A DNA stretch of 63,733 nt, filler included, from Nemertoderma westbladi (Eukaryota; Animalia; Xenacoelomorpha): NCBI GenBank assembly GCA_032718475.1. It is 3 parts of 3 records of this genome, joined end to end, with 100 filler letters (N's around TTAATTAATTAA, not from the genome) between each part and the next. Parts side by side here need not be neighbours in the genome. Positions count along the whole stretch, not along the records: positions 1 to 28,238 come from JAUCBJ010001173.1; 2 more parts are not named here. One strand, given 5' to 3'. Below the pieces are notes generated by a model. It worked only from the letters and a program-made list of their open reading frames with translations, was not told the DNA's origin and did not search any database. The position numbers were made by a program, and so were the translations under genes. This document shows, piece after piece, positions 4,339 to 46,979 of the stretch (its first letter is position 1; each line of letters begins with the position of its first letter).

Positions 4339-4358
4339 ATGGCACGTTATATTAACCA

Positions 4359-9133: not shown

Positions 9134-10141
9134 AACCAAAACAATAAACTAAGCAGTATGCACAATAGAACAGGTTACAGTTTTATTTTTGAGAATAATC
9201 AGCTGTTATTTGCATTGAATTTCCCCTGGAGAGGGATGAATTTTTATTGCGTCCAGTTTCCCCCCCTATCTGTCGAAAATATACTCCGTAGGCCTAGTAC
9301 CTGGTGCCTCGGCACTCAGTAGGGGCCTACTACAGTACCGTAGTACTGTGGTGGTATTCGCCGCAGGTGGTAGGTGGTCGGCGCAGATAGTGTGGTCTAT
9401 CAGCTATGCTTTGTAGGCCTACAATGTACATAACATACCGCACTGTCTGTCTAGATAATATCTCAGCAAAATGAACCGTAAATGTTTTACGACACCCTAT
9501 ACAGTATAATACAAAATAAAACATACGTAGTTAATCTATTTTATATTAGGTCATGGCTAGCATGAGATATAGATACTGTATCAAACGTTGGAGTTTACAG
9601 TATACAATATAGAGTTATTCATTCATTCAGTTTTAGGTGAAATGTTTTCAAATTATTATTAAAGTAAAGGACCAAAATAACTATTTCATTTTTATTCCGC
9701 AATAAACTTTCGCCTATTACAGTGCACAACATACCTAGGCATCAGGTACTACCACCGTTGTACAGTATTAACCGTCTAGGCTAGGCAACTGGTACTGGGT
9801 AACTACCCGTAGCGGCAACCCAGTCCCGCTGTCCCGGCAACAGTCTAGCTGTACTTATTAATTATTTCGGACCAATTCGGACCAACATCCCATTTAGACC
9901 TTTGTATATTACTGTACGATAGTATCTGGTGCCTATTACTACATTATGCCGGGTAGTCTGGTGCCTCCTACACCGGGAAAGATTGTTGCGAAATAGCTGA
10001 GTTACTACAGTATGGGCGTTCGAACGTTGCACGGTTTTGCATCTGCGCGATGCCATTTTATCCTAATTAATAAATACAGGTACACCTGACTTCTGGAACA
10101 TTAAATGTATTTTAATATTATTATTGCTATTACGTAGCTAT

Positions 10142-10758
10142 TGTAAGCAGATACAATTCACTGCACTACCCAGCGGAAAATGGGGAAAGTGGCTTTTTAC
10201 CAATTATAGTTGGCTAGGTGACATCAGCAATATAATGTCACCTAACAACCAACAAAGGCAATATACATTGCCAGCCACAAGTAGAGATGAGAGGCTAGAA
10301 GCCATCTCAGGGGGACGAAGGGAGCTAGCGCGTGGGTATAAGGGAACAGGGAGTGCCAAGGGAAGGATGGATAGGTTAGCCAATGATGGGGCAGAACACC
10401 ATCTGATTAGGATGCATCCATTGGCCAGGCCACGCAGCAAGTAGCCATATTCCATATGTGTTAGTAATATAACCGTTGCATTTATTACCTGTTGTTCAGT
10501 TGGTTTGTGTAGAGATGTGGAAGCAAGACGGTTTAAACCGTCGTCATCGTCATTAACTGTGCTATTATTATATTCTGATTGTGCTATTATTGTATTCTGA
10601 CATTACGAACAACTGCCACTAAAACTCAGTTATTCTATCGGCCTCCGGCCTTTCAGATACCACAAGCCTTTCAGCAGCCAGCGGAAGCGGTGACGCGTAT
10701 TATCCAAAAGCAAACACATCGGTCAGGATTCCCTCACCAACTCAGGGATCCCATCACA
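10142..10758 (+). repeat. Element A 5' LTR
   Basis: Direct repeat of 20764-21368 with scattered substitutions and small indels; AATATAA at about 10466 and Inr-like TCAGTT at 10496. Confidence 0.93.
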
Positions 10759-10835
10759 GTTTAAACCTCGCTTAGAAACTTGAAAACCAGAATATGAGGT
10801 CCAAGACAAACTGTGACTGCGCAAACGCCAACGAG

Positions 10836-13800
10836 ATGAGTGAACAACAACCACCCCAAGGTCCAGAGGGAGGAGGAAGCCCGCCATGCACTCCGATTGA
10901 TAGAGACCAAACGATCCGGGAAGCAGCGACGAGAAGGTACCAGCCCGTCACACCGGATTCGCCGAGGAGAGACGGTTCGGTCAATGAGAAGGAGAACGGT
11001 CGAGTACGAGGAGAAGAGGGACGCGAGTCGGCACGGGATCAGAGTGGAGAACGAAGTACTGGAGTCGCCAGCCAACCAGTGGCTGAAGTCGCAATGGTGG
11101 GGCCGATGGTACGACGCCGGACGTGGAGAGAAGGTCAAGTTCAGGAGGAAGATGTCGGGACGAGCGATCGCCTACGACGAGGGTACAACGTGACAAGGAA
11201 GCTATACTCAAGGATGCTACGAGCGGAGGAAAGTTAGACCAGCCCAAGTTGTACCGGAGACTCGGTGAGTGCAATTAACATTTCCACTACCTAGTCCGAT
11301 TTTGGCAGGGGGAACTATCGAGTGAGAGGGCAAGGGCGGTCGCCACAGAACTGTTTGAATTGTGGCGATCCGAGATAATGCCACCTGGTGTAGTGTACGT
11401 AGGAATTATCTAGTGGATGCACGGGGGATTAAGTTAGTGGGATGGGCAGATCCGCACGACTGCTAGCAAGCACGGCAAAATTAGTAGAACGAACAGGCGA
11501 CGGGAGTCCGTCGCAACCGAAAAGTCTGCTACATCCTCCGCGAAAGCAAGAAGGGTGTTAGAGATAGATCTGGCGTGTCAGTTAGATATGGTTGCATTAG
11601 ATCAAAAGGAATTAGAGAGACAGCTGGATGAGGGGACTGCGTTATTAGAAAGGGAGCTAGCGAGAGTGTGTAAAGAGAGGGCTGATAAGGTGGTGAGAAA
11701 CTATAGGAAATGTGAGGAGATGGAAAAGAGTGAGCATGAAGAGCGGGAGGCGAGAGAGGTGAACGAGAGCAAAGAGCGAGAGGCGAGGAAAGCTGAGAGG
11801 ATTGCGAGGGAGGCAGAGTTAGCCAATCAGAGTGTTAGAGAGGATAGAGAGAGAGAGATATCTGGTAAGAGAATTCGGGATGATATGCATACCCGGTTGA
11901 CGGGGTTAATGCAGTATCAGGCGAAACAAAAGCGCCCATTAAAGCTGGCAAAAATGGGTTTATCAGAGAGCGAAGCTGGTTCGGGAAGTATTTACGAGGA
12001 ACCAGGGGTGATGGAAACCTTTGTTAATACCCCACTTACAGGTACCGGACGACAGACACAAAACTGGTGTGACCGGACGGATGGGGGGGGAGGTAACGAC
12101 AATACGTTTAATGAGAATGTTAATATTAATAATACCGTAATAGATAATCCTAACAATAATGAAACGTTTCTTACAGGAAATAATATTTTAATAGATATAA
12201 TGTAAATAAATATTGGTGCGCCGAATAACCAAAATAATTTAAATAATAATATTAGTAGTGGTACGATAAATAACAATATAATAAATAATCCTGGTGAAAT
12301 TAATCAAAATAATCTAAATAATAATATAATGAATAATCACGGCAAGGCTAGTGGCAGTACAATTAATATAAACATTAGTGAAGTATACAATGTATACAAG
12401 TATACATTGTATACAAAGTATACAAGTGAACTGGGGCTCCCAATGACGGAGGAGAATAGAGGGGGGCAACAGACGCCCCACGGATGTCTGCGGGAAATGC
12501 GCGCGGTGGGTTAGTGAACCGTGGCACCCAACAACGGGGGGAAAGGGGGGGGGGGGGGGGAACAGACGCCCCGCGAGCATTGGCGAAAAATGCGCGCAAT
12601 GAGTCAAGTGAACCGTGGCACCCAACGACGGAGGATAGTAGAAGGGCAACGGATATCCGCGAGGCCATACAACCAGGTAGAGGGAGGAATGTTGGTGCCG
12701 TAAGCGGCCAAACGAGAGAACGTCGAGGCCACTCGGAAGACGGAAGGAGAACAGTTCATCCGGGAGGTCGATACGAGACCTCATGAACATGGATATAATG
12801 TCGAAACCGGAGGATGCGAGGAGGAGCGAGGAGATGTTGCTACGGGCAACCTCTGATCTCGAGATAGGATGGACAGTGAACCATTGATAGTTGAAGTAGA
12901 GAGGGAGGGCCAGTGGGGTCGTACTCCGGGAGATTACCATTGCCCCGGAGAAACACAACCTGGCGAAATATATCACACACCGGGAGAGGGGTACAGAGTG
13001 TACCGGAACGAGGAGGAAGATAGAAGAGGGGATCGAAGGGAAACTTCCCATTGGAACGTAGCTGGTGATCGCAGGGAGGAGTTCTTGGAATATTCGAGAA
13101 GATTAAACTTCGATCCGGAGGAACACACCTACAGACTGCAGGACATACTGTAGGCCTTACTGCACATACTATAGGCCATGCTGGGAGAGATAGTGTAGGC
13201 GCTAGGGTAGCGCGAATGCCGGGATTGGACCCAGAGGTCGCGGCTTACATACCATTGAGTAGGCAGGAACCTGCTAGGAATATACCGGTACCTGCACACC
13301 AGTATGAATATAATATGCAGGGATATAACACATACCCAGGGGAGGGGGGGGGGTATTGCAGATAGCTGTATGCGCCCCAATATAATGACATCTGCCCCAG
13401 TGCCATTTATAACATCGGGGGGGGGGGGGGGGGGGCAGGGTGACATTCCCCCATTACTGTATCCGCAATAATGCAACCTAAAATAAAAAACGCGACCCCA
13501 AAGATCATGCAACATGGAGATATGGAGGGGACAGTTACCCCCGATGATATACCCTACTCAGGGAAAGTTGACGAAACCGAGAGGCGAAGCACAATCAACA
13601 TCGAAGGAGCCTGCATCCGTACCGTCAAGCGCACTGGAAATTCAAGCGATGGGAATGGCAACACTCATCGACGCGCTGAAAACTAGAATATAGCTGCCAC
13701 CAGTGGAGCCTTTTAAGTTTGATGTTAGCAAGCCGGAAGAATATCTACATTTCTAGAGGATGTCGAAAATCTCACACAGGCGGAGTGCCTTAAATATCCA

Positions 13801-16400
13801 CAAGTTTATACAGGGGGGCCAGCCTACGACATCGTGAGGCAATACCAAGGAATTGAAGGAGGATTTACAACCGCGTGGAGAGCCCTTGAACAGGAAATTT
13901 GGCCATCCTGCGAAGATTATCCGACAAACCTTAAGGGGAAGGGGAATAACATCAGGCGGACTCGCAGATAACCCTGTTAGCATCAAGACCTTCACTAACA
14001 AAGTAGAAAAGGCGCTGATAATCTTAAAGACCCTAGGCCTAGATGCACCATATTAACTCAATGCATCGAATAATATCACGACCATAGCGCAGGCACTTCT
14101 GATTTGGTTGAGGAACAAATGGAGAAAGATCGCTTTCTCCACTCGAGAGAAGAAGGGTGCAGAGCCAGGGTTGGAGGAGATGTTGAACTTCCTTAACTAC
14201 GAGGCGGATTTGATAACGGATCCAGTCTATAGTGGGGACAGTCTAGGCAAAGTACCGAAAACGGAATACAGCCGACCTAAACCCGAACATAGTGCGGCGA
14301 ATGCACTTCCAAAAGTGAGGCAGTTGCTACCATATGCGGCCACACAGGGGACTACAAGTCCGCAGAGTGCTGGGAGTAGAGCCACATCGTGGCAGGGACA
14401 GAAACAAAGCAACAAGACCAGTAGATATAAACCCAATACCCCCAGTAGGCCGAGTTCAAACAACCAAAACACCAAACTGCTAGATATGCATCTAAATGCA
14501 ATATGCGAAGCACTATATAAGGAATGCTACAACCCTGATTACAAATGCCGATTGCATAGGAGCGGGACATATAAGACCATAAACTGTAAGCATTGGCAGA
14601 TTAAACAAGACCAAATAGCCTCCACTGGAAAGAATGGCCCATGTCACCGATGCGCGGTAGGAGGGCACAGAAAGGATGAATGTCAAGAACCACCGATCAA
14701 GTATGCCAAGACTGATGGAACTGGAGGCCAGATGATGGCGACGAGCACCATGGGAGCAAGGTATTACTCGGAGTAGTACCAGTGAGAATAATTGGAGAAA
14801 GCGGACTATCGGTTGCAACATTAATGTTAGTCGATAGCGGAACAGCGTTCATGCTGACGGAGAGTTGGGTGGCTGTGAAGATAGGATTAAAGACCAGGCC
14901 AAGTAATATGGCGGTGACCATGATATCGAGCAAAGACGAGGTCATGAAGATGAGGATGGTACGGTGTGAAATTGGAGCAATAACACCAGGGTGCGACTAT
15001 GGGGCTACAATTGAACCCATTCAAATAATAGAGTCGATAAACATAAACGCCAGGCGACCTACAAAGATCGAGTCAAACAAAACCGGTACCTGGACGGCAT
15101 CGACTTCTCTGTGCCCAAACTAGATGTCCCGAAAGTGTCTCTCATAGTCGGCATGGACTGTCCGATGGCCCATGAGAGGTTGCAAACCATCTTCAGAGAC
15201 GACAAAGAGCGAGACCCGGTGGCCATTCTCACGTCATTCGGATGGATGCTCAGTGGCCCAATAAAGACGAGGATCCTGTTTAGCGTATCCGAATCCTCTG
15301 GATGCATGCTGTCCGGTACCTTTGAAGACATAGAGCAAAAGCAAAAGACGGGTGATGGGGAGGTTCCATATTGGAAGCGGCCCGAGCAGAAGTCAAAGAC
15401 GGGCGATGGGGGAGGTCCCATATGAGAAGCGGCCCGGGGAAGGATATCAGGAATCGGGGGCAGGAATGGATCTGGAACCACGCATAGTGGAAAGGGTGGA
15501 GGATGAGTCCAGAGAAATACCACCAATAGAAGAGTCAGGAGGAGGAGCAACAGCAAGAGAGTGGGCGGAGGAGAATGGGTTCAATGCACAGGACCTTGAG
15601 GCAATGGGATGGAACACAGACGTTCCTGGCAAGTATCAGTACGGGGATGGGAAAGAGTTGATGGCGAGATATCCAGAGAGATGCCCGGAAGAGACGCCGA
15701 TCCAATTGGGAAGTATACTGATACTAGGGGGATTGAACAAGAAGATAAGGATAAAGAAGAAGAAACATAACAGGGTTGATCCAAAGGGAGAGGATTTGAG
15801 GATAAAGGATGATGGGAATGGGAAAGTTAGAGGAGACGTGTTGAACACGGGACTGGCAGAGTGCGAGGGGGCATTAAATGTTAAACCATTTTGCGTACCG
15901 AATGATGACCAAGGGTCATCGGGGGCTTTAACGCCGGCACACATATTGAGGGGGAGGCCAGCAGAGGTGGAATGTACCAGTGACGATGATATGAAGGGGG
16001 GCATTCTACCGCCAAATGACTACAAGATGAAGGGTGGCATTCTGCCACCAAAAGACGATGACAAATTCTGTGAAATAGCGGGAAGGTCGGACCTGAGACA
16101 GGAGAAGAGGATGGGGGGGGGGGGGGGCAGTGACGGGCCAGATGTGATGTCAGTGGGCCAGAAGTGGATATGAATCCTACTGATGAAAAGACAACCAAGG
16201 GTAGCATTTGACTACAAAGGGAGGAATTTTATAAAGAAATGGCAAGTCTCCAGGATGAAGATGTCTATGACAGCAGGGGGCATTCTACTACTGAATGCTA
16301 CCCCAGCGAGGATGGAAAGATTAGATCCGTGGAAGTGAGGATCGGAGGAAAGATAGGGGCCAAAGATAGGAAGACCTACAGGAGGGCAGCGCCCTAATTA
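10836..16400 (+). pseudogene. Degraded BEL/Pao gag-protease with integrase C-terminal remnant
   Basis: Gag core (FGHPAKIIRQTL, LRNKWRKIAF..LEEMLNFLNYEA), knuckles (CRLHRSGTYKTINC, CHRCAVGGHRKDEC), protease (MLVDSGTAF, LIVGMDCP, TSFGWMLSGP), then ECEGALNVKP..ALTPAHILRGRP and ECYPSEDGKIRSVEVR. Many stops and frameshifts. Confidence 0.85.
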
Positions 16401-17379
16401 TTAGAGTCGTCCAATATATTGGACTGAGGGGGGTGGGAATGAGGGTGAGATGCCCTTCCCCACACACAAATAAAAATAAAATAATAAAATAAAAAATAAA
16501 AATGAGTAAGTAGTAGTACCAAGGTACAGTTTAGGTAGATATTATGTACATCTGATGGGTATGGACATAACAACGTACATAATATTTAGGTGTAGGTAGT
16601 TATAATTATGTACGTCGGATGGGTACGAAGGTACCAAAGTACCTAGTTTACATACGCACCACATGCCAGGTCAATGGGAGCAATATCAGTATATGATATA
16701 TACTGTAGTAGAAGGGTACATAGTACCATAGTAAGGATTGGAAGGGTATACATTGCGTACGTCTGATTGGCACAATGTGCCAATGTACGTAATAAATACC
16801 AAACATGCCGGGTCAATGGGACCAATATTAATACGTAATACATACTACAGTTGGCACTGAGGGTACCATGTGAGGAGTTAAATGGGGTATGTAGGCGTAG
16901 TAAAATAGACTGTGTAGGCCGCACGAACTAGACTACTATAGTGCATAGCCCGTAGTAAAGACTTAGGCTATTGTTACAGAGCCAGAAAGCTGTCTGGTAG
17001 GAAGCTAGTACAACAATAAGAAAACTGTAGCTAGTCTTCTCTGTAGACAAGTAGAGGTGAATTACTTACGTAGTAATTGAGTAGCAGGTAGAATAATAGG
17101 ACATGGGGGGGGGGGGGGAATATAAAAATAATAATAAAAAATTAGAAAATTATAGCAACTGGGAATAAGGATTCTAGAATCATTAATAAAAGTAACGGAC
17201 AGAATTACAAATTAGGACCAAAATTGGCACATAGGGGGAATATTTGTACAAAAAATCGACAAAAGACCAGATAGGAGGTAGGCCATCACTGATCAAAACT
17301 AATTAAAGACCATATTTAGTAATCTCTTACCTAACTGAGCCTTTCTAAGGCACCACCAGCCTGGTGAGAGAGTGGAATC

Positions 17380-18380
17380 GTGATGGTGGAGAAACTGGTG
17401 AAGAAGAGGAAGTCGGAGAAGAGCGGGAAGGAGTTACTAGTGGACTTCATGTTGAGGCATCCGGAGAATAAGACAACGGAATACTACAAACGACTCCTGA
17501 AGAGTCAGAAAGTGCATGCTCTACTAGATCAGTTTAGGGAGATGCACAAGCTACTACTAGTCGGGACCTATGGGATGCCGTCGTTGGATAACACGATCGA
17601 CGAGCATCTTCGCTACGTTGTAAAGGGAGACGAGGCTACCTTCAGGATACCGAAGTATGCGAGGGAACCACCTAGGAAGGAATGGAGGAGGTTTGTAGAT
17701 TCTGTGGAGAGGGGTGGATACATGATCCTAGATGACAAGGGGACTGTGGAGGATGACGAAGGGTCAAGAAGGGGGTCAGGAGGATCGGGTAGAACTATAT
17801 TGCTGCATTTAGCGGCGCCGAATGGAGATATCTTTCTATTCGACCTAGGGACCTATGGAAAGAGGAGCGGGCCGAAGTTAATCCACCTACCGGATGCGGT
17901 GCAGAAACTAGTAAGGTTGAAGACTACGATAAAGGTTGGATTGGCGATACGCGACGACGCGGAGAGGATTATTGGACCGGGCACCCCTCTTCTGGACATG
18001 CAGGTAGTCTACATGGCTATGACGAAACCAGATGGATTGGGATTGGTGGATAACACGGGACAATACGGAGCCGTGGTGATGGGCCAGCTGATGGGACTCA
18101 TCTGCCACAAGCTGACGGGGTGGAGCTTGCGAACTCACTCAAATGGGGAGCGAGATCGGGGAAGGAGGAGTTATATCACTTCTGGAAAGGAGCGATAAAG
18201 ATATATCAGAAGAGATATATCTTACAGGAGGACTGGATAATGACAGGTTTGCTGAACCTATTTATCACAGTGGTTATTGGCAGGGAGCCGACGGCGTTTC
18301 TACTGATGGGAGCAGCTTTGAGCCACAGGAGAGCCTTTAAGGTAGCCCTAGAAGGTCTTGTAGACCACCCAGGGTAGAAG
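17380..18380 (+). pseudogene. DEDDy (WRN/EXD/Mut-7-like) 3'-5' exonuclease-like domain within element A, frameshifted near 18120
   Basis: YMILDDKG (ExoI-like), LLHLAAPNGDIFLFDL, LPDAVQKLV..TIKVGLAIRDDA (ExoII-like), LLDMQVVY, and in the next frame FWKGAIKIYQKRYILQED (ExoIII-like W..Q..YxxxE/D). Confidence 0.65.
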
Positions 18381-19053
18381 GGCGAATCGGTGTATTCTGA
18401 TTCCCAACACCTGGTGGACATAGAGGTAGACACACCGTACAAATGATGGAAGAAACACGAGGCGGATAGAGAAAAGGAAAGGAGGCTAGAGGAAGTCGCC
18501 AGGAGAGAGAGGAGGGAGGCAGCAGGCAGAGAGGCAGATATAAGGGGAGGGGAGTACGATTTTGAGGCCCAAGATTTGGATGAGTTGAGGTGAGGATCGG
18601 AGATCTCGGGCGAGTTTCGGCTGGGGGACGAGGTGGATTGGATGGAAGAGACACTGATACAGTCTACATCGGGACTGCAAGGAATGCTGATGCCTGGGGG
18701 GGGGGGGGTCTGATGGCGACTTTGGAAGGAAGAGACCGAGGACGATGGAGGGGTGGAGGGTTACGGGCGAGTACCAGGCTGGAAAGGGACATGGTGGATC
18801 AACCGGGATCCCGGATTTGGAGCCGCTCGTGGCAGAGGAAGTAGAGGAGGACGAGTTTGGGAGGATACCGCCGATAGAGAGAATCAGCCGGTCAGACGCG
18901 GACTGGGTGGACGGGAGAGTGGTGACATCCAGTGGGGCGAGAGCCTTCTGGGACGCACCCGGCAAGCAAGCCTGGGAGCACGGGGAACCAATGACGGACT
19001 TCCTGGCGAACATGATTCGACTGGGTGAGCAACCGGGGGCGGCACCATGAGTA

Positions 19054-19608
19054 GTGTTTGGGGAAACGATGCCGAGGGAGGAGGAGGACGTTGACATGGG
19101 TAGGGAGGACAAGGTGGAAATGTTCACCTACCAGCGGCTCCATAGACCCAGGAGGCTATGTGGAGCCAAGGACGACTTGGGGCGAGATACAGTGATAGTC
19201 GGTTGCGACTACTGTGGGAGACAAACCCATCAGCAAAAGAACTGTCTGTATCATTACCAGAAGGGGATGACATGTCTATATTGCCGCGAGTCTACCCATA
19301 GGATGGGCCCGTGCCCAAGGTTGCACCACAGGTGTTCGAAGTGCAACTTTAGGGGGCACTTTGAGCGCCAGTGCGACTGGATGGAGGATGAGGAGAAATT
19401 CCGTATCTTCGAGGATTGGCCCGACATCGGAGTCATGACAAGGCAAAGGATGAAGGCCCAGGAGTTCCAGTGGGGGTTTTTCAACATTAACCTACAGGCC
19501 CACCAGGAGATTACCAAGAGGACACTACCATTCACGTATCAGGAGGTAGCGACAGCGGCATCATATGGAGGGGTCATTAACACCCAAAGATATAATCCAA
19601 AGCCATAA
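19054..19608 (+). pseudogene. Zinc-knuckle cluster, probably the C-terminal part of the extra ORF of element A
   Basis: CDYCGRQTHQQKNC, CLYCRESTHRMGPC and CSKCNFRGHFERQC: three CX2CX4HX4C motifs. Confidence 0.7.
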
Positions 19609-19988
19609 ACCAACGATTTATAAGAGGTCGCCAGAAAACAGGATGGAGTTCAGGTATTTTCTGGCGGAACATGTGCCGCGTGGGGTGAAGATGATCTTGT
19701 GGGACGGTACCAGGGGGAAGCAGGAGGGACACTCAGTGGGACCACCTGCGAAGCGATATCGCGAATTAATAACGCCCCCACCCAAGGATCCAACAACGGG
19801 GCTCGGCAAGACGGTATCAGCGAGAATGAGTAGCCTCAAGAGCAAACAGGAGGGGAGGAAGCAACCGAGGCAGGACGATGATAGAGGTAAAGAGCTGAGA
19901 TGGTTCCTGGAGGGTACGGGAGGAGGACTTTAGGACTCTATAACTGATTGCGGGCAATGTCAATGTGCCTGGAAGGCACCGCATGGAT

Positions 19989-20299
19989 ACATAAGTACAA
20001 ATAACTCTCAAGTGCAATTAATACAAGTGCAATTAGTATGTACGTACGTAATCAATTAATACTAGAGAAATATAATATACATAGAATAGTCAGATATAAC
20101 CTTTTCCAATTAGCTACTGGGACTGGGGACTAATTGACTGAAACATAAGTACAAATAACTCTCAAGTGCAATTAATACAAGTGCAATTAGTATGTACGTA
20201 CGTAATCAATTAATACTAGAGAAATATAATATACATAGAATAGTCAGATATAACCTTTTCCAATTAGCTACTGGGACTGGGGACTAATTGACTGAAACA
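19989..20299. repeat. 154-bp tandem duplication inside element A
   Basis: acataagtacaaataactc...gactgaa occurs at 19989 and again at 20143. Confidence 0.95.
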
Positions 20300-20763
20300 G
20301 GAGGACGGGACAATGACGGATCTCACTGACATGGTGAACACATGTGTGAGGCCTGATAGGAGTGTGTGGAGAGTGACAGCAAAAGGGGGTTGAGGATAAG
20401 AGAAACGTGGGAGGAAGGTGCTAGGACTTCGGGGAAAGTAAAGAGTGCGAGTGGGGAGCGAGCATAGAGGAGGATGAGTCCTATGGGACTAGTGAGCGAG
20501 GAGAACGGACGACAGAGTCCGACATAAATTGTGTGAGGAGAGAGAGCAATCGTCTAAAGAGAGACGCCAGATGCCTTGGTGCAGCTTAGCTCGCAGATGT
20601 ACCAAGGATGGGTAGTGAAAAGAGACCCAGGGGGGCCAGCCTGGAAACTTGGCCCCAAGAAGAGAATTCCACCCCACATCCAATATTAGATTGGATTCCA
20701 GCAGAATTGGAGCGTACTTAAGGTTGATGCTATCTTCTCACCGGGAAGATAGCATGGGGGGAG

Positions 20764-21368
20764 TGTAAGCGGATCCAATTCACTGCACTACCCAGTGGAA
20801 AATGGGGAAAGTTGTTTTTTACCAATTATAGTTGGCTAGGTGACATTAGCAATATAATGTCACCTAACAACCAACAAAGGCAATATACATTGCCAGCCAC
20901 AAGTAGAGATGAGAGGCTACAAGCCATCTCAGGGGGACGAAGGGAGCTAGCACGTGGGATAAGGGAACAGCGAGTGCCAAGGGAAGGAAGGATAGGTTAG
21001 CCAATGATGGGGCAGAACACCATCTGATTGGGATGCATCCATTGGCCAGGCCACACAGCAAGAAGCAATATTCCATGTGTTAGTAATATAACCGTTGCAT
21101 TTATTACCTGTTGTTCAGTTGGTTTGTGTAGAGATGTGGAAGCAAGACGGTTTAAACCGTCGTCATCGTCATTAACTGTGCTATTATTATATTCTGATTG
21201 TGCTATTATTGTATTCTGACATTACGAACAACTGCCACTAAAATCTATCGGCCTCAGGCCTTTCAGATACCACAAGCCTTTCACCAGCCAGCAGACGCAG
21301 CGACGCATACTATCCAAAAGCAAACACATCGGTCGGGATTTCCTCGCCAACTCGGGGATCCCGTCACA
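20764..21368 (+). repeat. Element A 3' LTR
   Basis: Direct repeat of 10142-10758, directly after the PPT. Confidence 0.93.
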
Positions 21369-21666
21369 GCGATGCAGTATTCATACATAAACAAAGTGTT
21401 CTAGAATATGGGGTACTTATTTATTAAATATAATAAGACTCGCGCACGTGCAAAACTCATGTGGGGGGGGGGGGGGGTGGCGGGCAAGTCACTGAATTAA
21501 GAAAATATATTCCAGGACATGGTGTGTGTTTCGCATAAAAATAAGTGTCTCCCCGGTTAATAATGTAAGATTCAAATGAAATTAAAGCAGTTTAGACTAT
21601 TACGAGCGTGCGAGGCAATAGTTGGAGCTTGTATTACATAATATAGAGAGAGTTATGTTTCTTTAT

Positions 21667-22827
21667 TTACTCTTGTAGACCAGGATTGGTAACTTTACCC
21701 AAGAAGAGCAGAATATCGTTCCTTTTGTCTCTAATAGCAAAAAGAAAGGGCCGAGAGAGACAGATAGACGGGTTCCCGCAGGAGTCACTTTCGTATACAG
21801 CAGTAACTGCGGCAGCCTCAGACCCTTCCTCGTTAACTAACACAAAGGTTTTGTGTACAATGCCTTCGACAGACAGGCCGGCACTGTTGGTCACTCCCGA
21901 TAGATCGCATATCTCCGAAAACAGATCCGTCATCCCCATATCCGACAGCGTTTCAGTCAAAGTGTAAGAATCTTCAAGTTTAAACTTCGGGATGAAAACA
22001 GTCACCTCGATCTCCTCTAACTTTTCGAACACATTATCGAACCATTTGTTGCTAATTTTGGCCTCGAGAGCGGCGATTTCGTCATATGGCAATATAAATA
22101 TCATCGAGAGATCATTTCCTTTGTAGGGTATCTCCAATACCGTGAAGTCGTTATTACGAACTACGTTAAAGCGCCTATCTAACATTCTCATATACATCAC
22201 ATCGACTTCTCCTTCCTTGTCAGTAATGAATTTATCTTGAAAGCTTTTCTTGGGATCGAATTTGTTTTCCCAATCACCCTTGAAGTACAAGGCGTTTACA
22301 AGAACCAATTTGGTATCACCATCGATACATCTCTCACCAACTATTTCCTGTATTTTATCTCTCGTCATGGATGCCACCCAATTATTTATCTCGATTCGAA
22401 CTTCCTCAGGGAACCTCACAAAGTCGACTTTCTCTACCTCAGAACCGTACTGCTCTTTGGTTAGCTGTAGATATTCATCTTTGATCGGATAATCCTGTCG
22501 CACGTATAGCTTATTAGCTCCATCGAGAGTGTAAGGCTTTTCATCTCTATAAAGATAGTTTTGTATTGCCTGAATAGCGTTGTGTATTTCGTCATCTTTT
22601 AGGTCTTTGTAATGGAGAACTTTTCTCATCTGTTGTTTAGTTGCCCCTGCAGTGCCACCATATGTCATGGATAGCGCCGTTATCAGACTCAATGGACTGA
22701 TCAGAATGTTGGTATCGGATTTATCCTTTATTATCTCCTTGTACAGATCGATAGCAAAGCTGGTGATCGATCGACTAAGGGCTTCCACATTCGCTTCGAG
22801 ATCGACTAATTCTTTAACGCATTCCAT
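21667..22827 (-). CDS. Serpin (protease inhibitor), intronless, no signal peptide, 386 aa
   Basis: NILISPLSL, EINNWVASMTRDKI, LVNALYFKGDW, IPKFKLE, hinge NEEGSEAAAVT, C-terminal RPFLFAIRD..LFLGKVTNP. Confidence 0.97.
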   Translation of the reverse strand: MECVKELVDLEANVEALSRSITSFAIDLYKEIIKDKSDTNILISPLSLITALSMTYGGTAGATKQQMRKVLHYKDLKDDEIHNAIQAIQNYLYRDEKPYTLDGANKLYVRQDYPIKDEYLQLTKEQYGSEVEKVDFVRFPEEVRIEINNWVASMTRDKIQEIVGERCIDGDTKLVLVNALYFKGDWENKFDPKKSFQDKFITDKEGEVDVMYMRMLDRRFNVVRNNDFTVLEIPYKGNDLSMIFILPYDEIAALEAKISNKWFDNVFEKLEEIEVTVFIPKFKLEDSYTLTETLSDMGMTDLFSEICDLSGVTNSAGLSVEGIVHKTFVLVNEEGSEAAAVTAVYESDSCGNPSICLSRPFLFAIRDKRNDILLFLGKVTNPGLQE

Positions 22828-23149
22828 TGTAAGCGGTGATTAAAATAATTTGGTTATTCTCTAATTTTATTATTTGTACTTTATTTTAATTACTTTATTG
22901 TTATCGAAACTTTTAGGTAGTGTTTTAGACACGAAAAGGAATTAGGGAAGTAATGAATGGAGATTCGGGTCTCCCTAAGACCCGGTCCTGTCCCTGTCCC
23001 CGGTCCCCAAGACACCTAAAACCCGGTCCGCCGGTCCCAATGAAAGTCTACGTGGAATTCATCCAGAAAAAAGGACCGGGGAAATCCCGGTCGGTGCTGA
23101 CCCCTAAGAGTCGACCCCTTAAAAGCCGGCCCATGCTTGGATGAAAAAA

Positions 23150-38518: not shown

Positions 38519-39052
38519 TGTGACGGGATCCAGGAGGGATCCCGATTTATCCGATGTTTAGTTCACGCGTCCCCGCCGTGTGTAAAGAGTAAAATGAGTT
38601 CTGATGTTCGGTGTATATAATGATCAGTCTAATAAGATATAGATATAGGTTGTTGTACACGGAAGGCGGGATACGGTAACTAAAGTCCCGGTCCTTCCCT
38701 AGCTAAACTATCTAACTTAACTAGCACCAATACGATACTGGGATAACTGACTGATATGATTACTGGTAACTGGTTATATTGCACGGTGGCCTTATTGCTG
38801 TACCTAATCGATGCCTTTCCCCCCTCTGATTGGTTGATATCCCTGTTGGCACCCTTTGGAGTGTTTCCCTTCACTCCTTGTGTTCTCTCTCGGTTAGGGG
38901 TTTGGCCCCTGACCCTCCATTGTGTGTTTCTCCTTCCCTTCCCACTTTATTGGGGTAACACGAGGTTGATATTGGTAATCAACCTCGTGCTCCCAATATT
39001 GCTTAATGGCTCACTCTATGGGTTTGTGTTAGCGGAATTGGATAAGCTAACA
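38519..39052 (-). repeat. Element B 3' LTR
   Basis: Direct repeat of 46444-46979, adjacent to the PPT. Confidence 0.96.
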
Positions 39053-39671
39053 CTCCCCCCCATGCTATCTTCCCGGTAAGAAGATAGCATCCAACTAAAG
39101 TGCGCTACAATTCCGCTGGAACTCGATCTATTATCGGGTGTGGGGTGGGGTTATTTTCTTGGAGTCGGCTTTCCAGGCTGCTCCCTATGGGTATGATCTC
39201 ACTACCCTCTGGCGTCTCGTGTCGGGCCGATCGTGCGCTTCTCTCACACAATTTTTGTTTCCCCAACACTCTCGCCACTCTAACTTCGCTCTCTAACTCA
39301 ACTCGCTCTCTCCCCACTCTTACACTCTCCCCACACCTGAATCGCACTCTAACTTCTCGCCAACAGCTCTTCTCACTATCTCATCTCTACTCTCTGCTAC
39401 TCCCTAAGGCCCTAATCTCTAATGCTACCCCTGTGCTATCATACTATCTACCTTATCTAAGGTCTAACTTGCTAACTATCTAACTTCTCTAACTCTAACT
39501 AACTCCTAACTCTACTAACTCTACTCTACTCTCTGCTAACTCTTACTACTTCTAGCTCTAACTAAAAGCCTCTAACTTTCTACTAACTCTAACTAGAACT
39601 CTCTAACTTTCTGCTAAGTCTACTAACTATTTTCTAACTCTGACTAAAATCCTCCAACTAACTCTATCTCT

Positions 39672-40190
39672 ATCTACGTGGCGCTAACGGTGCCCACAAC
39701 CACAACCGGTACTACGTACCCTCTTACTAACTCTATCTCCATCTACGTGGCGCTAACGGTGCCCACAACCACTCTACTACTAACTCTAACTAAAACCCTC
39801 TATCTACGTGGCGCTAACGGTGCCCACAACCACTCTACTACTAACTCTAACTAAAACCCTCTATCTACGTGGCGCTAACGGTGCCCACAACCACAACCGG
39901 TACTACGTACCCTCTTACTAACTCTACCTCCATCTACGTGGCGCTAACGGTGCCCACAACCACTCCCTGCTGCTACTTTCTACGTGGCGCTTCCAGTGCC
40001 CACAACCCCTCTCTTACTACTTTCTACGTGGCGCTACCGGTGCCCACAACCACTCCACTACTACTACTTTCTACGTGGCGCTTCCGGTGCCCACAACCCC
40101 CCTCTTACTACTTTCTACGTGGCGCTTCCGGTGCCCACAACCCCTCTCTTACTACTTTCTACGTGGCGCTTCCGGTGCCCACAACCTCTC
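39672..40190. repeat. Array of ten 29-bp cores (tctacgtggcgct(a/t)(a/c)cggtgcccacaacc) with variable low-complexity spacers
   Basis: Core recurs with spacers of about 15-40 bp in the 3' non-coding region of element B. Confidence 0.9.
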
Positions 40191-40327
40191 TACCACTGCT
40201 ACTTTCTACTAACTATTATTTTAATTATTTATTATTGTTTATTTAAATTAAATAATTATTTTGTGGGAAGGGCGTCTCGCCCTCATTCCCACCCCCCTCA
40301 GTCCAAAATATTGGACGACTAAACCTC

Positions 40328-43300
40328 TTAACTAGGGCGATTCTTCCAACAGGCACTCTCCCACTGCTGCTCTTGTAGGTCCTGTAGGATTCGCCGCACT
40401 CTCATCGCCAATTCCATCTCACCAGGAATTGGTTCTCCCTCTTCTGCCACCCTGAAATCGGGTCTCTCCGCCGCCTTCTTAACTAGCTCATCTCCTGGCA
40501 TCAAAATGCCACCTCTCTCCTTGTTGTCTCCCGCCGGCAGAATGAATAGAAAGTGAAAGAACAGGCAGAACAGAAGGTAGAATAATAGTCCTATCCCTTT
40601 CCATCCTGCCTTCCTTCTCGACTTCCCCCTTGTCGGTATGCCTCCAAACCGGACCTGCGTCTCTTCCGGACACTCCTCTGGACACTCCCCCGGAGTGTTG
40701 TCCTCCGGACACCTCGCCGTCCGCTCCGCTCCATCTCCATACCGATGCTTGCTGGGAAACCTACTCTCCTCTGCCCACTTTCTTACCGTCACCTCCCTAT
40801 TTGGCTCTACTATCTCTTGTATCTCCTCTACTTCCTCTGCGTCTTCGATGCCTGGTATCATGCACCCAGATGTCTCTGTCACACTGCATGGGATGTTGGT
40901 TTTAACTGGGCCGCTAAGCGTCCATCCGAACGGCGTGAGGATCGCCGTCGGGTCCCGCTGCCTGTCTTCGCCGAAGACCGTCTTCGTTCTCTCGTGGGCC
41001 GTCGGGCAGTCCATCCCTACTATAATGGACACCTTCCTAACGTCCACCTTTGGTATTGAGAAATCGATACCGTCCAGGAATCTATATTGCTCGACCTCAA
41101 TGTTGGTTGGTCGCCTGGCGTTGATGTTTATCGATTTGATGATGTGGATGGGGTCGATCGTCGCCCCATAGTCGCATCCCGGTGCAATCGCTGCTATCCT
41201 GCACCGCCCCGTCCTCGTCTCCAGGACCTCATCTTTACTCGAGACGGTAGTTACCGCCATTCTGTTCGGCCTCGTCTTTAGCCCTATCTCTTCGGCCACC
41301 CAGTTCTCCACCAGCGTGAAGGCTGCTCCGCTGTCGACCAGCATTAATGTCGTTACTGATCGACCGCCCTCTCCTGATATCTTTACTGGTACTACCCCGA
41401 GTAGTACTTTTCTCTTCTTCTCCTCTTCTATAGTGCTTGTGGCCATTGCCTGGCCTCCAGTCTCGGACTCTCTGACTGCTGTTTCTCTACACTCTCCGTA
41501 TCTGTGTCCCTCTACCACACATCGATGACATAGTCCGTTTGCGTCTGTGTAGGCTATACGATCTTGTTTGGGCAACGCTTGCCAGTGCTTACAACTCCTG
41601 GTCTTATGTGTTCCGTCCCGATGTAATTGACATTCGAATCCTGGATTATAGCGTTCCCTGTATAGTCCCTCACGTATCGCGCGTAGGTTTATATGTACCG
41701 ATTTAGTGTTTTGGTTGTCTGTATTCGGCCTACTGGGTACATTGGGATTATGTTTATTTATGGTGTTATTTTCTTTCTGTCCCTGCCACGGTGTGGCCCT
41801 ACTCCCAGCTAACTGTGGACTAGCAGTCCCCTGTGTGGCCGCATGTGGTAGTGATTGTCCTACTCTCGGGAATGGATCTGCAGGATCGTGTTCGGGTTTA
41901 TGGCTTGTCCCCAAACTGTCCTCGCTATAGACTGGGTCTGTTATTAATTCGGCTTCATAGTTGAGGAAGCTCGACATCTCTTCTAAGCCCGGTTCCGCAC
42001 CCTTCTTTTCCCGTGTGGAGAAAGCGATTTTCCTCCACTTCCTTCGTAACCAGACCGGCAGTGCCTGCGCTATCGTGGTGATGTTGTTAGACGCGTTGAG
42101 TTCGTATGGTGCGTCTAGCGTCTTTAACACGATTAACGCCTTCTCGACCTTGTTTGCAAAGGTCCTTATGCTAACAGGATTGTCCTGTAGGCCATCCGAT
42201 GTTATGCCTCTCAGGGTTTGCCGGATGATCTTGGCCGGGTGCCCGTATTCCCTATCTAGCACCCGCCATGCTGTCGTGAAGCCGCCCTCGATGCCCTGGT
42301 ATTGCCTCACGATGTCGTATGCTGGGCCTCCTGTATATACTTGCAGATATTTTAGGCACTCCGCCTGCGTCAAGTTCTTACTTAATATTTCGTTACTACC
42401 CAGTGAAAAGTGCGCAAGCGTATCGCAAGCGTGCAACGCAGGCGTATCTCATGTGATTCCCAAGAGTTATGGCCCGACCTTTACGCAAGCGACCTACTTG
42501 CGTTAAGCCGCATAGATATCGCAACAACTTGCGTTAAGTCACATAAATATCGCAACAACTTGCGTCCAGTCACATAAAACACACATGCGATTCACTTGCG
42601 ACTTTCAAGCGTGATGACGCATAAATATCACAAAAATCTACCGGTTGTGATTTTTGTGTAATATATTGAGACCTTTGTGACAGAAAATATGATACAGTAG
42701 TTGATTATTCCACTACTGTTTGATACTATGGGCTTCCATATCATCTGCCTACTGTACTTACAGTACCTTACATTACATTACATTACAATCTCTAGACATA
42801 GAATATTAGACATACGGTATGAATCAATACTAGAAATGGTTGTTAATATACAGGATAATACAAATAGATTAGAATAACCATGACACATTTTTAACTATTC
42901 CCTATAATTTTCAATTCTATAAAATATATTAATATAATCACTGAATTCGACAGCCATATTAGATAATTCATATTCATCAATTTTATATTTTAAAACTATT
43001 TATTTATTGATAGGCAACTTTATTTTAATTAATAATCTTGAGTGTAATTAAAACCATGCGATTCACATGGGAATTAACGCATGATATTCTCATTGTGTAA
43101 AACATGCGTAAAATAAGTGTTAAATGAGGTGTGATTCGCATGCGATTTTCATGCACGGAATCACATGCGTAAAATAAGTTGTGAATCGCATGCGTGGAAT
43201 CGCTTCCCTATTTTACATGTGAATCACATGCGAATCACAAGAGTTTTATCGCTATTTATTGACCCGCAATTAAAACGCATGTCGCATTAAAATCACTTGC

Positions 43301-46300
43301 GATACGCATGCGCATTTTTCACTGGGTATACATGCGCCGAAACTGTAGATATTCTTCCGGCCTACTCCCATCGAATTTAAATGGTTCCACAGGTGGTAAC
43401 TCGATCCTAGTTTTTAACGCATCGATTAATGTGGCCATCCCCATCGCCTGCGCTTCCAATGGGTTCGATGGATGTTGTATAGTTTCTCTTGCTGGGTACG
43501 GTCCGTTCACCCTATCTGCTGTTGACTTTGCTTGTTGCGTCGGGTATATCATTGTGGGTAACGGCCCCCTCCATATTTCCGTGTCGCACGATCTGCTCTC
43601 GTCCAAGGGGTTCGATGTTCTCGCTCCTATTGGGGTATATTGTTGATATTGTGATGGGGGAATGTCACCCTGTCCCCCTCCCACCGGTATGTTTGGTACT
43701 GGGGTTGATGTTAATATATTGGGGCCCATACATCTATCTGCAATAATTCCCCCCTCCCCTGGATATATGTTGTGTCCCTGGAAATTATAGTCATGCTGCT
43801 GTACCGGTACCGATATAGGCCTATTCACTTCTTGCCTACCTACCGGTATGTACTCCGCGACTTCCGGGTTTAATCCCGTCGTCCGCGCTACCCTATCGCC
43901 TACTCTATCTCTCCCAGCATGGCCTATAATAGTATGTGCAGTAAGGCCTACAGTATGTCCTGCAGTCTGCATGTGCCCTTCCGAATCGAAGTTTATTCTT
44001 CGCGAATCTCGAATCTCCCCGCGACTACCGTACTCTCGATCGGCAGCTATATCACGTCGGGAAGTTTCCCTTCGATCCCCTATCCTGCTCTCGTCTTCGT
44101 ATCGGTACATCCTGTACCCCTCTCTTGGCGTGCGGTGCGTTTCTCCGGGGCGACGGCAATCTCCCGAAGTTCGACCCCACTGACTCCCTACCTCCATCTC
44201 TACTATCGACGGCTCGCTATCCGTCCTCGCTCTCCGGTTGCTCCTAGCAACGACTCTTCTATTATCTTCCCTTCTTCTCTCTTCGACCTCTCGGTTAAAC
44301 TCTGCTAATCTTCTTCTATCTTCGACCTCTCTATTATACTCTACTAATCTTCTCCTATCTTCGACCTCTCTATTAAACTCTACTAATCTTCTCTCTTCTG
44401 ACTGGGCTCGACGTTCCGTCGCCCGCCCTCTCGCGACGTCAACCTGTCTCTCTCTGCTCGATCGCACGCCGCTGGGGATACTCGCAATCCCCCTATTACT
44501 CTCCGTCGCCGGGTGTTGCGGTTTACCTAATTCGGCCCGCGCATTATCCGCTGACGCCTGTGGGACACTCTCTGCCCCCCCTCTCTCGCTACTAATCTCT
44601 CGTGGTGGGGCGCCCGTAGCCCCCCCCCCCCCCCCCACCCGCCACTTCTAACTTCACTATCTCTTACTACAATTCTGCGTCCCTCTTGTCGGACATTTTC
44701 TACCCCCCTTCTCTCGCCACTAACCTTCCGTGGTGGGGCGCCCGTAGCCCCCCCCCACCCGCCACTTCTAACTTCACTACCTCTTACTACACTTCTACAC
44801 CCCTCTTGTGGGGCATTCTCTGCCCCCCCTCTCTCGCCGCTAATCTCATGTGGTGGGGCGCCCGTAGCCCCCCCCCCCCACCCGCCACATCTAACTTCAA
44901 TATCTCTTACTTCGTCTCTACACCCCTCTCTAGTCGACACACTGTCTCTACTGCGGCCGGGTCTATTCACCCCCGCCTCTCTCTCTACTACTGCGTGGCC
45001 TACCAGGCCCACCTCGGGTTGGCTCAACCGCGCCACTTCCTGCCTACTAACTACGTGGCCTACCAGGCCGCCGTCTGCCGGGCTATACACGTCTGACGCG
45101 TTCACATTAATAGCACCATTCCCAATATTATTTGTTAAATCAATTAATTATTAGAACCATTAGAATTTGAAACGGGATTATTATTTAAATTATTTTGTGT
45201 ATTTAGATTTAAACTATTTGAATTATTTTGATTATTCTGAATATTTGAATTAATATTATTATTTGAATTTAAACTTAAATTACTACTACCGGGTAAAATA
45301 TTTCCTGTAATAAAGGGATTAGGGTTATTTACTACGGTACTATTAATACCAATATTTCCTAACGCACTACTACTACCCCCCTCGCCCGTACGGTTACTGT
45401 ACGTACTGTACGTGTACCGCACGCTCTGTTCTCTTGCCTCACGCTCTTCGCGTTCACTCTCTCGCTCCTTCCTTCCCCTCAGTCGCCACTCTAATTCTTC
45501 AATTTTTAATTTATATGCAGCCAGATTTATCTCCTGCACCCTTCTTTCTTTTGCGGAGGATGTAGCAGACTTATCGGTTGCGACGGACTCCCGCCGCCCC
45601 TCCGTCCTACCAACTTTCCCCCGCTTTCCGGGGTCCTCGCTGACCGACGAGACCGAATCCTCGGAGCTAACCTCGGATTCGCCCTCGTGCGGTCCCGCCC
45701 AACCCACTAACTTAACTTCCCTGGCATCGACTAAGTATGGCCCTATGTACACTACACCAGGCCCCATACCCCTACGTTCCCATAGCCCAAACAGTTCGAT
45801 GGCAACCCCTCTCGCTCTCTCGCTGGCTAGTTCTCCCTGGCCAGAACGCACTAGGTAATCAAAGTATCTGTTCGACTCACCTAGTCGTCTCCTCAACTTC
45901 ACCTGGTCTATCTCAGCCCCTCCTCTAGCTTCCTTCAGTTGTTCCCGGGTCGCGGCGTAGGCTCGTCGAAGTCGATCAGAAACCCCGACATCCTCGTCGC
46001 CGACCTCTCCTCCATCTCTCCGGGTTCGGCGTCGTACCGGCGGCCCCACCGTTGCCGTTCCGGTGGGCCGTCCGTCGCCCTCGGTCTGTGGCTGACCGGC
46101 GACATCGGTACGTCGACCCTCGCTCCGCGTCGACTCGTCTTTCTCCTCTCCCGTCTCACTCTCTCCTCTACTCGACTCGCTCTCTCGCTCGTAGACGACC
46201 CCCCACATCTTGGTTCGCCGGGTTGCTCGTTATCGACGTGGCGTCAACCGGCGTCGACGTGGTCGACGTAGCATCGACCGGCGTCGTGGGTTCGTATCGT

Positions 46301-46374
46301 CTCGCCGTGGCCTCGCGGATCGTTAGATCGTCGTCCGGGGTCCGCGGCGGTGTCGTTCCTCTCTCTCGACTCAT
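40328..46374 (-). pseudogene. Gag-protease of element B, interrupted by frameshifts and a DNA transposon
   Basis: FKFDGSRPEEYLQF / LKYLQVYTGGPAYDIV..AWRVLDREYG; CQLH..H..C and CHRC..GH..EC; VLLGVVPV..LVDSGA; IIVGMDCP..TPFGWTLSGP. Confidence 0.88.
42399..43326. mobile_element. Non-autonomous EnSpm/CACTA-like DNA transposon (928 bp) inserted in gag of element B
   Basis: TIRs CCCAGTGAAAA(G/A)TGCGCA(A/T)GCGTATCGCAAG, 2-bp TA duplication; removing it restores the gag frame. Confidence 0.82.
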
Positions 46375-46443
46375 CTTCGTCTTTAGTGATTGGTGGCTGG
46401 TGGTTATTGAGTTTATCCAGGGCAGCAGCACGGATTTAGTTAC

Positions 46444-46979
46444 TGTGACGGGATCCAGGAGGGATCCCGATTTATCCGATGTTTAGTTCACGCGTCCCCG
46501 CCGTGTGTAAAGAGTAAAATGAGTTCTGATGTTCGGTGTATATAATGATCAGTCTAATAAGATATAGATATAGGTTGTTGTACACGGAAGGCGGGATACG
46601 GTAACTAAAGTCCCGGTCCTTCCCTAGCTAAACTATCTAACTTAACTAGCACCAATACGATACTGGGATAACTGACTGATATGATTACTGGTAACTGGTT
46701 ATATTGCACGGTGGCCTTATTGCTGTACCTAATCGATGCCTTTCCCCCCTCTGATTGGTTGATATCCCTGTTGGCACCCTTTGGAGTGTTTCCCTTCACT
46801 CCTTGTGTTCTCTCTCGGTTAGGGGTTTGGCCCCTGACCCTCCATTGTGTGTTTCTCCTTCCCTTCCCACTTTATTGGGGTGACACGAGGTTGATATTGG
46901 TAATCAACCTCGTGCTCCCAATATTGCTTTATGGCTCACTCTATGGGTTTGTGTGTTAGCGGAATTGGATAAGCTAACA
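46444..46979 (-). repeat. Element B 5' LTR
   Basis: Direct repeat of 38519-39052; sense-strand AATATAA followed by Inr-like TCAGT. Confidence 0.96.

What the first reader, a model, noticed from the sequence alone, without database searches (positions are those of the whole stretch)
17380..19933. DEDDy 3'-5' exonuclease plus zinc-knuckle cargo in the env position of a BEL-derived element
Seen: between the pol remnant and the 3' LTR lies a ~2.5-kb decayed coding region with ExoI-like ILDDKG (one G>A change from DDEG), LLHLA..IFLFDL, LP..V.KLV...IKVG.AI.DD (ExoII), an ExoIII-like W..Q..YILQE, an RG-rich stretch and three CCHC knuckles. Established: this fold occurs in WRN-exo, EXD1/2 and Mut-7/Nibbler small-RNA factors, and DEDDy ORFs are known as extra ORFs in some bdelloid rotifer retroelements. 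Inference: an RNA-binding nuclease carried by an RT-less BEL element, possibly for primer/RNA end processing or to counter small-RNA silencing. Element B lacks it.
Basis: partly seen in the sequence, partly recalled or inferred. Interest (0 to 1): 0.8.

Follow-up and report, generated by a model that had tools for sequence, protein, structure and literature searches.

The report
Exonuclease–zinc-knuckle cargo in BEL retrotransposon
A multi-copy jumping gene of the BEL/Pao group carries, where a viral coat gene would sit, an extra gene (broken in this copy) with three zinc knuckles and a domain that likely has the shape of an RNA-end-trimming enzyme, which the element likely uses to chew or hold the small RNAs that would otherwise silence it.

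Summary
A BEL/Pao-derived element without reverse transcriptase (LTRs 10142-10758 and 20764-21368, 5-bp target duplication) holds a decayed coding region of about 850 codons (17383-19933) between its pol remnant and 3' LTR. The region is multi-copy in the same organism. Differences between copies favour silent positions, and at the ExoI glutamate position about 97% of contig depth encodes the acidic residue this copy lacks. Three strict CCHC knuckles are real. The DEDDy fold is likely but weakly supported: no library or database hit; a WRN/EXD2-like profile ranks it first of 1067 window frames (E 0.03); ExoIII is unsupported. Two details are wrong: the RG-rich stretch is off-frame, and the cited ExoIII Trp is private to this copy. 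DEDDy ORF3s are published for bdelloid Gypsy elements, and exonuclease-plus-CCHC proteins for trypanosomes. I found no paper on either in BEL/Pao. This scan noted other exonuclease cargoes, and BEL self-priming, on other DNA before. Function is untested; counter-silencing is my best guess. Both BEL elements here show a self-priming signature instead of a tRNA site. Verdict: new variant of a known kind.

The parts
10137..10141 (+). target-site duplication, left copy (right copy 21369-21373, one mismatch)
10142..10758 (+). 5' LTR of element A, TG...CA
10530..10538 (+). LTR 9-mer complementary to the 9 bases at the primer-binding position (candidate self-primer)
   Evidence: 5 of 3000 LTR shuffles give such a match
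10759..10767 (+). primer-binding position; no TGG tRNA-type start; complementary to own LTR
11438..15330 (+). decayed gag-protease region, 65-71% alike in DNA to element B, whose frame carries DUF1759 and an aspartyl protease
15331..16397 (+). short pol remnant; no room for RT, RNase H and integrase core; integrase-tail motifs recognised by eye (recalled, no Pfam hit)
17331..17349 (+). branch-point-like CTAAC and pyrimidine-AG, a possible splice acceptor 34 bases before the ATG (inferred, no RNA data)
   Evidence: sequence
17383..18112 (+). cargo gene, first open piece: N-terminal region, ExoI (17725-17742; Lys at the Glu position in this copy) and ExoII (17929-17958)
18112..18115 (+). frame break; contigs of other copies carry extra letters here
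   Evidence: table 7 (positions of loose ends); (favoured frame switches here)
18117..18374 (+). cargo gene, second piece: candidate ExoIII helix (Gln 18207, Tyr 18216, Glu 18228, Asp 18231), then a hydrophobic stretch
   Evidence: no profile support
18375..19203 (+). charged, acidic linker with in-frame stops at 18375, 18444, 18591 and 19048 and a frame change at the G run near 18695-18709
19204..19374 (+). three CX2CX4HX4C zinc knuckles
19375..19933 (+). C-terminal part, with a further frame change near 19600
19986..20293 (+). 154-base tandem duplication in the 3' untranslated part
20748..20763 (+). polypurine tract
20764..21368 (+). 3' LTR of element A
38519..46979 (-). element B, a younger sister element (LTR K2P 0.004, perfect 5-bp TSD) without RT and without the cargo; comparison only

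Best explanation
The region is a broken copy of an accessory gene that a multi-copy BEL/Pao-derived family carries after pol, encoding three CCHC zinc knuckles joined to a likely WRN/EXD2-type DEDDy domain; intact copies would likely act as an RNA-binding 3'-5' exonuclease that likely trims or destroys the small RNAs that silence the element. Shown: position inside the element, multi-copy status, coding-type divergence, knuckles, acidic ExoI and ExoII residues in the family. Inferred: the fold (about 0.85), expression from a spliced subgenomic RNA, catalytic activity (about 0.6), RNA as substrate held by the knuckles, and small silencing RNAs as the target. The copy in this window is dead, and lacking RT it would need a partner element to move.
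For: Cargo lies between two anchors shared with element B (16390-16509 and 20610-20781), has no termini or duplication of its own and the same strand bias as gag-pol (purine fraction 0.628 in both, 0.48 in flanks). One contig from another copy joins the pol end to the knuckle region and then to the LTR (joints 16387-19093 and 19156-10598 in runs X2 and X3). Summed contig depth over the cargo is above 1,100 in X1-X3 against 22-48 in the right flank (not a copy number). Of 40 listed differences (the tool showed 40 of 150), 14 of 23 before the break and 10 of 17 after it are silent in the favoured frames, against 2-4 in the other frames. Fold: ESM Atlas top hits are WRN-like PF01612 clusters at 0.84 (a lead only); a profile of 87 bacterial WRN/EXD2-like proteins ranks this frame first of 1067 window frames (E 0.032) and above all 2000 shuffles; hhalign P 8.7e-5 with a 5-sequence profile and 0 of 200 shuffles with the large one. 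A DEDDy domain plus tandem CCHC knuckles is a working exoribonuclease in TbRND, where the knuckles hold the RNA (PMC7797062 passages). A separate gene that the sister element and most BEL elements do without points to a host-facing role rather than core replication (inference). Mut-7/Nibbler and EXD1 act in small-RNA pathways (PMC5408684, and recalled).
Against: No hit in Pfam, NCBIfam, PHROGs, PDB sequences or 1.84 billion representatives (the single hit P0001 is a repeat protein). The single-sequence model is poor (pLDDT 37) and finds no DnaQ fold. The confident model (pLDDT 71, EXD2 Z 9.7) was built on an alignment to exonucleases and is circular. ExoIII is unsupported and has Glu, not Asp, four residues after the Tyr. 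No RNA run was listed, and nothing here shows the substrate or an effect on silencing. In bdelloids DEDDy ORF3s showed no clear link to copy number (PMC5408684).
Confidence: 0.4

Rival explanations
1. The enzyme serves the element's own replication. These elements appear to prime reverse transcription with a piece of their own LTR RNA; the exonuclease would trim the cut RNA back to the paired 3' end, or polish other RNA or cDNA ends in the particle.
For: In both A and B the 9 bases right after the 5' LTR are the exact reverse complement of a 9-mer in their own LTR, with different letters in the two elements and only 4-5 bases in cross tests; 5 and 10 of 3000 shuffles match. The ICTV profile expects an 18-base tRNA site there (PMC8742986). 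3'-end processing was proposed for bdelloid DEDDy ORF3s.
Against: Element B has the same signature, is younger and lacks the cargo (it could borrow it in trans). Tf1-type self-priming is described without such an enzyme (PMC4600332 passages). Folding supports the pairing in 1 of 4 trial transcripts only (0.98 in one of A; 0, 0 and 0.18 in the others). The gene is separate from gag-pol, so packaging is not implied.
Confidence: 0.2
2. The domain keeps the fold but not catalysis, and with the knuckles works as an RNA-binding adaptor or decoy, as EXD1, Maelstrom or Egalitarian do, for example to move or shield the element's RNA.
For: ExoIII is atypical and unsupported by the profile. Catalytically dead DEDD derivatives act in piRNA biogenesis (PMC5408684). 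Earlier scan notes describe dead exonuclease cargoes elsewhere (unchecked).
Against: The family keeps both ExoI acids and the ExoII Asp, and a Tyr with acidic residues at +4 and +5; bdelloid ORF3s with a DEED variant are regarded as intact.
Confidence: 0.2
3. The gene is a host sequence captured once and carried as a neutral passenger by a successful non-autonomous family.
For: This copy is decayed, and element B spread without it.
Against: Silent changes are in excess among copies, the strand bias equals that of gag-pol, and no close cellular relative was found.
Confidence: 0.08
4. The N-terminal domain is not a DEDDy fold; the motifs are chance likenesses in a fast-evolving knuckle protein.
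For: All general searches failed; profile scores are low (9.3 bits); 1 of 200 shuffles reached the score of the read-through query.
Confidence: 0.12

Closest known systems
DEDDy-type ORF3 of bdelloid Juno and Vesta LTR retrotransposons and Terminons (PMC5408684)
   Same: A separate DEDDy-like gene after pol, in the env position, present in some families only; function untested.
   Different: Those LTR elements have a full pol with dUTPase; this one is BEL/Pao-derived and lacks RT. No triple CCHC knuckle is described for them in the two parts I read (a Cys-His-Cys motif is noted in Vesta2 and Vesta5). Kinship was not tested.
TbRND, mitochondrial RNase D of Trypanosoma brucei (PMC7797062)
   Same: DEDDy exonuclease domain followed by tandem CCHC knuckles, which bind the RNA there.
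   Different: A cellular enzyme with four knuckles and a short linker; here three knuckles after an acidic linker of about 300 codons. No sequence homology shown; likely convergent.
WRN-exo / EXD2 / Mut-7 (Nibbler) / EXD1 family, Pfam PF01612
   Same: Order and spacing of ExoI, two strands, helix, KVG strand and ExoII; best profile fit is to WRN/EXD2-like proteins.
   Different: Below Pfam detection; ExoIII atypical; fused to knuckles; carried by a retroelement.
Belpaoviridae (BEL/Pao) elements with env-like third genes (PMC8742986)
   Same: LTRs, 5-bp TSD, DUF1759 gag, protease, PPT, third-gene slot.
   Different: No RT, RNase H or integrase core; no tRNA primer site; third gene is not a glycoprotein.

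Membership tests
BEL/Pao (Belpaoviridae) | LTRs with TG...CA ends, short target duplication, polypurine tract | tested here: met
BEL/Pao (Belpaoviridae) | BEL-type gag and aspartyl protease | tested here: met
   DUF1759 E 2.6e-8 and protease E 3.1e-6 in element B; A matches B at 71% DNA identity there; weak protease hit in A
BEL/Pao (Belpaoviridae) | pol with protease, RT, RNase H, integrase | tested here: not met
   about 1 kb between protease and pol end, no RT or integrase hit; filed as a BEL-derived non-autonomous element, not a full member
BEL/Pao (Belpaoviridae) | 18-base primer site for tRNA-Arg or tRNA-Gly | tested here: not met
   no TGG start; the site pairs with the element's own LTR; host tRNAs were not available to exclude an unusual tRNA match
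DEDDy 3'-5' exonucleases (WRN/EXD2 type) | DnaQ-like alpha/beta fold | tested here: inconclusive
   targeted profile and language-model support; unguided model failed; guided model circular
DEDDy 3'-5' exonucleases (WRN/EXD2 type) | ExoI D-x-E after a hydrophobic strand | tested here: met
   met in the family (about 97% of contig depth); this copy has Lys
DEDDy 3'-5' exonucleases (WRN/EXD2 type) | ExoII Asp | tested here: met
   Asp at 17956 aligns to the invariant Asp of the profile
DEDDy 3'-5' exonucleases (WRN/EXD2 type) | ExoIII Y-x3-D | tested here: inconclusive
   Tyr with Glu at +4 and Asp at +5; no profile support
DEDDy 3'-5' exonucleases (WRN/EXD2 type) | metal-dependent exonuclease activity | not testable with these tools
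   needs an assay
bdelloid DEDDy ORF3 pool | separate gene downstream of pol | tested here: met
   own ATG at 17383 after a 1-kb spacer
bdelloid DEDDy ORF3 pool | clusters with Juno/Vesta/Terminon DEDDy proteins | not tested
   those sequences were not obtained
Tf1/sushi-type self-priming | primer site complementary to the 5' part of the element's own RNA | tested here: inconclusive
   9-base complement in both LTRs with different letters; transcription start unknown

The most novel reading that the evidence does not exclude
A lineage of BEL/Pao elements has dropped tRNA priming for a self-made RNA primer and has recruited its own knuckle-guided WRN-type exonuclease, supplied in trans within the family, to trim that primer (and possibly host small RNAs). 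This would be a retroelement-encoded primer-maturation nuclease.
Probability: 0.12. Interest if true: 0.85.

Novelty: new variant of a known kind. Interest (0 to 1): 0.52.

Why it matters
It extends non-env exonuclease cargo from bdelloid elements to a BEL/Pao lineage, in a new exonuclease-plus-triple-knuckle build that parallels TbRND. The function of such ORF3 nucleases has been open since 2017. A high-copy family with and without the gene in one genome is a good place to test whether animal retrotransposons encode suppressors of small-RNA silencing or their own end-processing enzymes.

Tried and rejected
No whole genome is held for this window, so intact copies could not be read. Searches that found nothing: Pfam, NCBIfam and PHROGs on the exonuclease pieces; word-index searches for longer proteins with the exonuclease piece and the knuckle piece (near-length proteins were not searched); phmmer on 1.84 billion representatives, one spurious hit; PDB sequences; phage records; viral and metagenome contigs with the cargo or with B's gag-protease. 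Single-sequence AlphaFold gave pLDDT 37 and no meaningful fold match. Direct BLASTP to one bacterial WRN-like protein gave nothing. Small RNase D/NrnC (6 sequences) and PolA (4 sequences) profiles ranked the frame 126th and 222nd; they are shallow, so this is only a hint for the subfamily. No RNA holder was listed, which says nothing about expression. Rejected: independent insertion (no termini or duplication at the cargo edges); duplication of the gag knuckles (no self match); RG-rich domain (off-frame). The Copia control used an LTR end that overshoots, so it is not counted. No phylogeny against host EXD/Mut-7 and no formal dN/dS were possible.

Full report
Setting. No genome is held for this window. 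A self-comparison shows element A with LTRs at 10142-10758 and 20764-21368: TG...CA ends, target duplication GCTAT/GCGAT, polypurine tract at 20748-20763, and LTR distance K2P 0.046, with 12 of 17 transitions in CpG context. A sister element B lies on the minus strand (38519-46979; K2P 0.004; perfect TTGTT duplication). B's long frame hits DUF1759 (E 2.6e-8) and an aspartyl protease (E 3.1e-6); that DUF1759 marks BEL/Pao gag is recalled. A matches B at 65-71% over gag-protease. In A only about 1 kb separates the protease from the pol end, and no RT, RNase H or integrase profile hits, so A is a non-autonomous derivative. An animal host is inferred from the BEL/Pao range (PMC8742986, whole text).

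The observation. All quoted motifs are present. The three knuckles are strict CX2CX4HX4C and make up 3 of 6 such matches in 127,462 six-frame codons. Stop positions and a codon model trained on B's frame and two cargo pieces (so circular over 17380-18111 and 19126-19596) trace one coding path from the ATG at 17383 to about 19933, with frame changes near 18113, 18700 and 19600 and in-frame stops at 18375, 18444, 18591 and 19048.

Is it part of the element? It lies between two anchors shared with B (16390-16509, 20610-20781). It has no terminal repeats or duplication of its own, and its purine fraction equals that of gag-pol (0.628 both; flanks 0.48). Of 6 runs listed I laid 4; X1 and X3 are one sample. 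Summed contig depth over the cargo bins is 1,186-10,245 in X1-X3 against 22-48 in the right flank; this is no copy number but shows many copies. One contig in X2 and X3 joins the pol end to the knuckle region and then to the LTR, a deleted copy that ties the three together (table 5). B lacks the cargo.

Was it under selection? Laying the same runs on 17690-18330 listed 40 of 150 differences. Before the break 14 of 23 are silent in the main frame against 3 and 4 in the others; after it 10 of 17 in the second frame against 4 and 2. Loose ends pile up at 18112-18115, so other copies carry extra letters at this copy's break. At the ExoI glutamate codon about 97% of depth in X1-X3, and the one X5 contig, encode the acidic residue; this copy's Lys is private. 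The Trp at 18183 is also largely private (85-93% of depth differs). Depth peaks fall on ExoI and, highest, on the ExoIII candidate (21,000-46,000 at 18196-18239), a weak hint that these are the best-kept stretches. This is a selected subset of sites, not a dN/dS.

The fold. General searches failed: Pfam, NCBIfam, PHROGs, PDB sequences, word-index searches, phmmer on 1.84 billion proteins with one spurious repeat hit. The ESM Atlas put WRN-like PF01612 clusters first at 0.84, below its threshold of trust. I built a reference family from bacterial WRN/EXD2-like proteins (the seed matches WRN-exo at E 8e-18). The 87-sequence profile ranks the cargo frame first of 1067 window frames (9.3 bits, E 0.032; next 3.0 bits) and above 2000 shuffles (best 4.6). 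hhalign aligns the two strands, the helix, the KVG strand and ExoII (P 8.7e-5; 0 of 200 shuffles). The ExoIII piece has no support (77 of 200 shuffles), and reading through with X did not extend the match. The unguided AlphaFold model is poor (pLDDT 37) though it places strands at ExoI and the next two motifs; its fold searches are uninformative. The guided model (pLDDT 71) matches EXD2 (Z 9.7, rmsd 5.1, 117 aligned), EXD1, WRN, Nibbler and TbRND, but it was built on an exonuclease alignment, had no decoy control, and counts only as compatibility. I put the DEDDy fold at about 0.85 and family-level catalysis at about 0.6.

How it likely works. The gene has its own ATG after a 1-kb spacer, with a branch-point-like CTAAC and acceptor-like AG 34 bases upstream, as expected for a third gene read from a spliced RNA; bdelloid ORF3s are said to be expressed so (PMC5408684, parts 2 and 3 of 5 read). 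No RNA data test this. In TbRND tandem CCHC knuckles hold RNA for a DEDDy domain (PMC7797062, passages). By analogy the protein would grip single-stranded RNA and remove bases from the 3' end. The gene is optional (B lacks it) and separate from gag-pol, and its closest animal look-alikes work in small-RNA pathways, so I favour counter-silencing (0.4) over primer or end processing (0.2), a dead RNA-binding adaptor (0.2), a wrong fold call (0.12) and a neutral passenger (0.08). Every step after the fold is inference.

A side result that bears on mechanism. Neither A nor B has a tRNA-type primer site. In each, the 9 bases right after the 5' LTR are the exact reverse complement of a 9-mer in its own LTR, 220 and 157 bases from the LTR end, both followed by CGT. 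The letters differ between the elements; cross matches are 4-5 bases; 5 and 10 of 3000 shuffles reach 9; only 30 of 9973 and 11 of 7365 internal 9-mers do so. This resembles Tf1/Tj1 self-priming (PMC4600332, passages). Folding supports the pairing in 1 of 4 trial transcripts. I noted this before finding that earlier scan notes report the same signature in BEL elements of other genomes (unchecked AI notes). It gives the primer-trimming rival a concrete substrate, but B has the signature without the gene.

What is known. DEDDy ORF3s are described for bdelloid Juno/Vesta elements and Terminons, and DEDDy domains inside some Dada DNA transposases (PMC3706591, passages); a review lists DnaQ-like domains among LTR accessory domains (PMC6338049, passage). 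Six searches showed no paper on an exonuclease gene in BEL/Pao elements; the main text of the BEL/Pao survey PMC3118150 does not contain the word exonuclease, nor do PMC12440569 and PMC13524379. The library lacks most subscription papers and Repbase, and I read no supplements, so an annotation there may exist. Earlier scan notes describe Rrp6-like or DEDDh cargoes in LTR elements of other invertebrates; none matched this sequence or the BEL-WRN-CCHC wording.

Verdict. A real, family-wide cargo gene, dead in this copy; probable WRN/EXD2-type exonuclease fused to three knuckles; new variant of a known kind; interest 0.52.

Noticed in passing
window 10530-10538 with 10759-10767; 46609-46601 with 46443-46435 (minus): Both BEL-derived elements have a primer-binding position complementary to their own LTR, with different letters: a self-priming signature.
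   Followed up: partly
window 11266-11271 and about 45880-45875 (minus): A donor-like GTGAGT lies at the matching place in A and B early in the gag region; it could feed a spliced RNA.
   Followed up: no
window 4353-9133 (minus): An apparently intact Copia element: one 1362-codon frame with gag, integrase and RT hits and LTRs 99.6% alike.
   Followed up: partly
window 21667-22839 (minus): An intron-free, uninterrupted serpin frame of 390 codons 300 bases from element A's 3' LTR.
   Followed up: no
window about 42400-43340: An AT-rich insertion of about 940 bases interrupts element B's gag, apparently a nested DNA element.
   Followed up: no
window 39651-40209: Element B holds imperfect tandem repeats in the slot where A holds the cargo gene.
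   Followed up: no
window 63540-63733 (minus): A fragment of a third element of the same group (84% alike to B), cut by another repeat and by the window end.
   Followed up: no
window 49606-56500 and 57169-58220: Satellite arrays with units of 28 and about 53 bases.
   Followed up: no
window 28239-28338 and 48831-48930: Four runs of 44 N in two matching blocks with a short palindrome between the runs.
   Followed up: no
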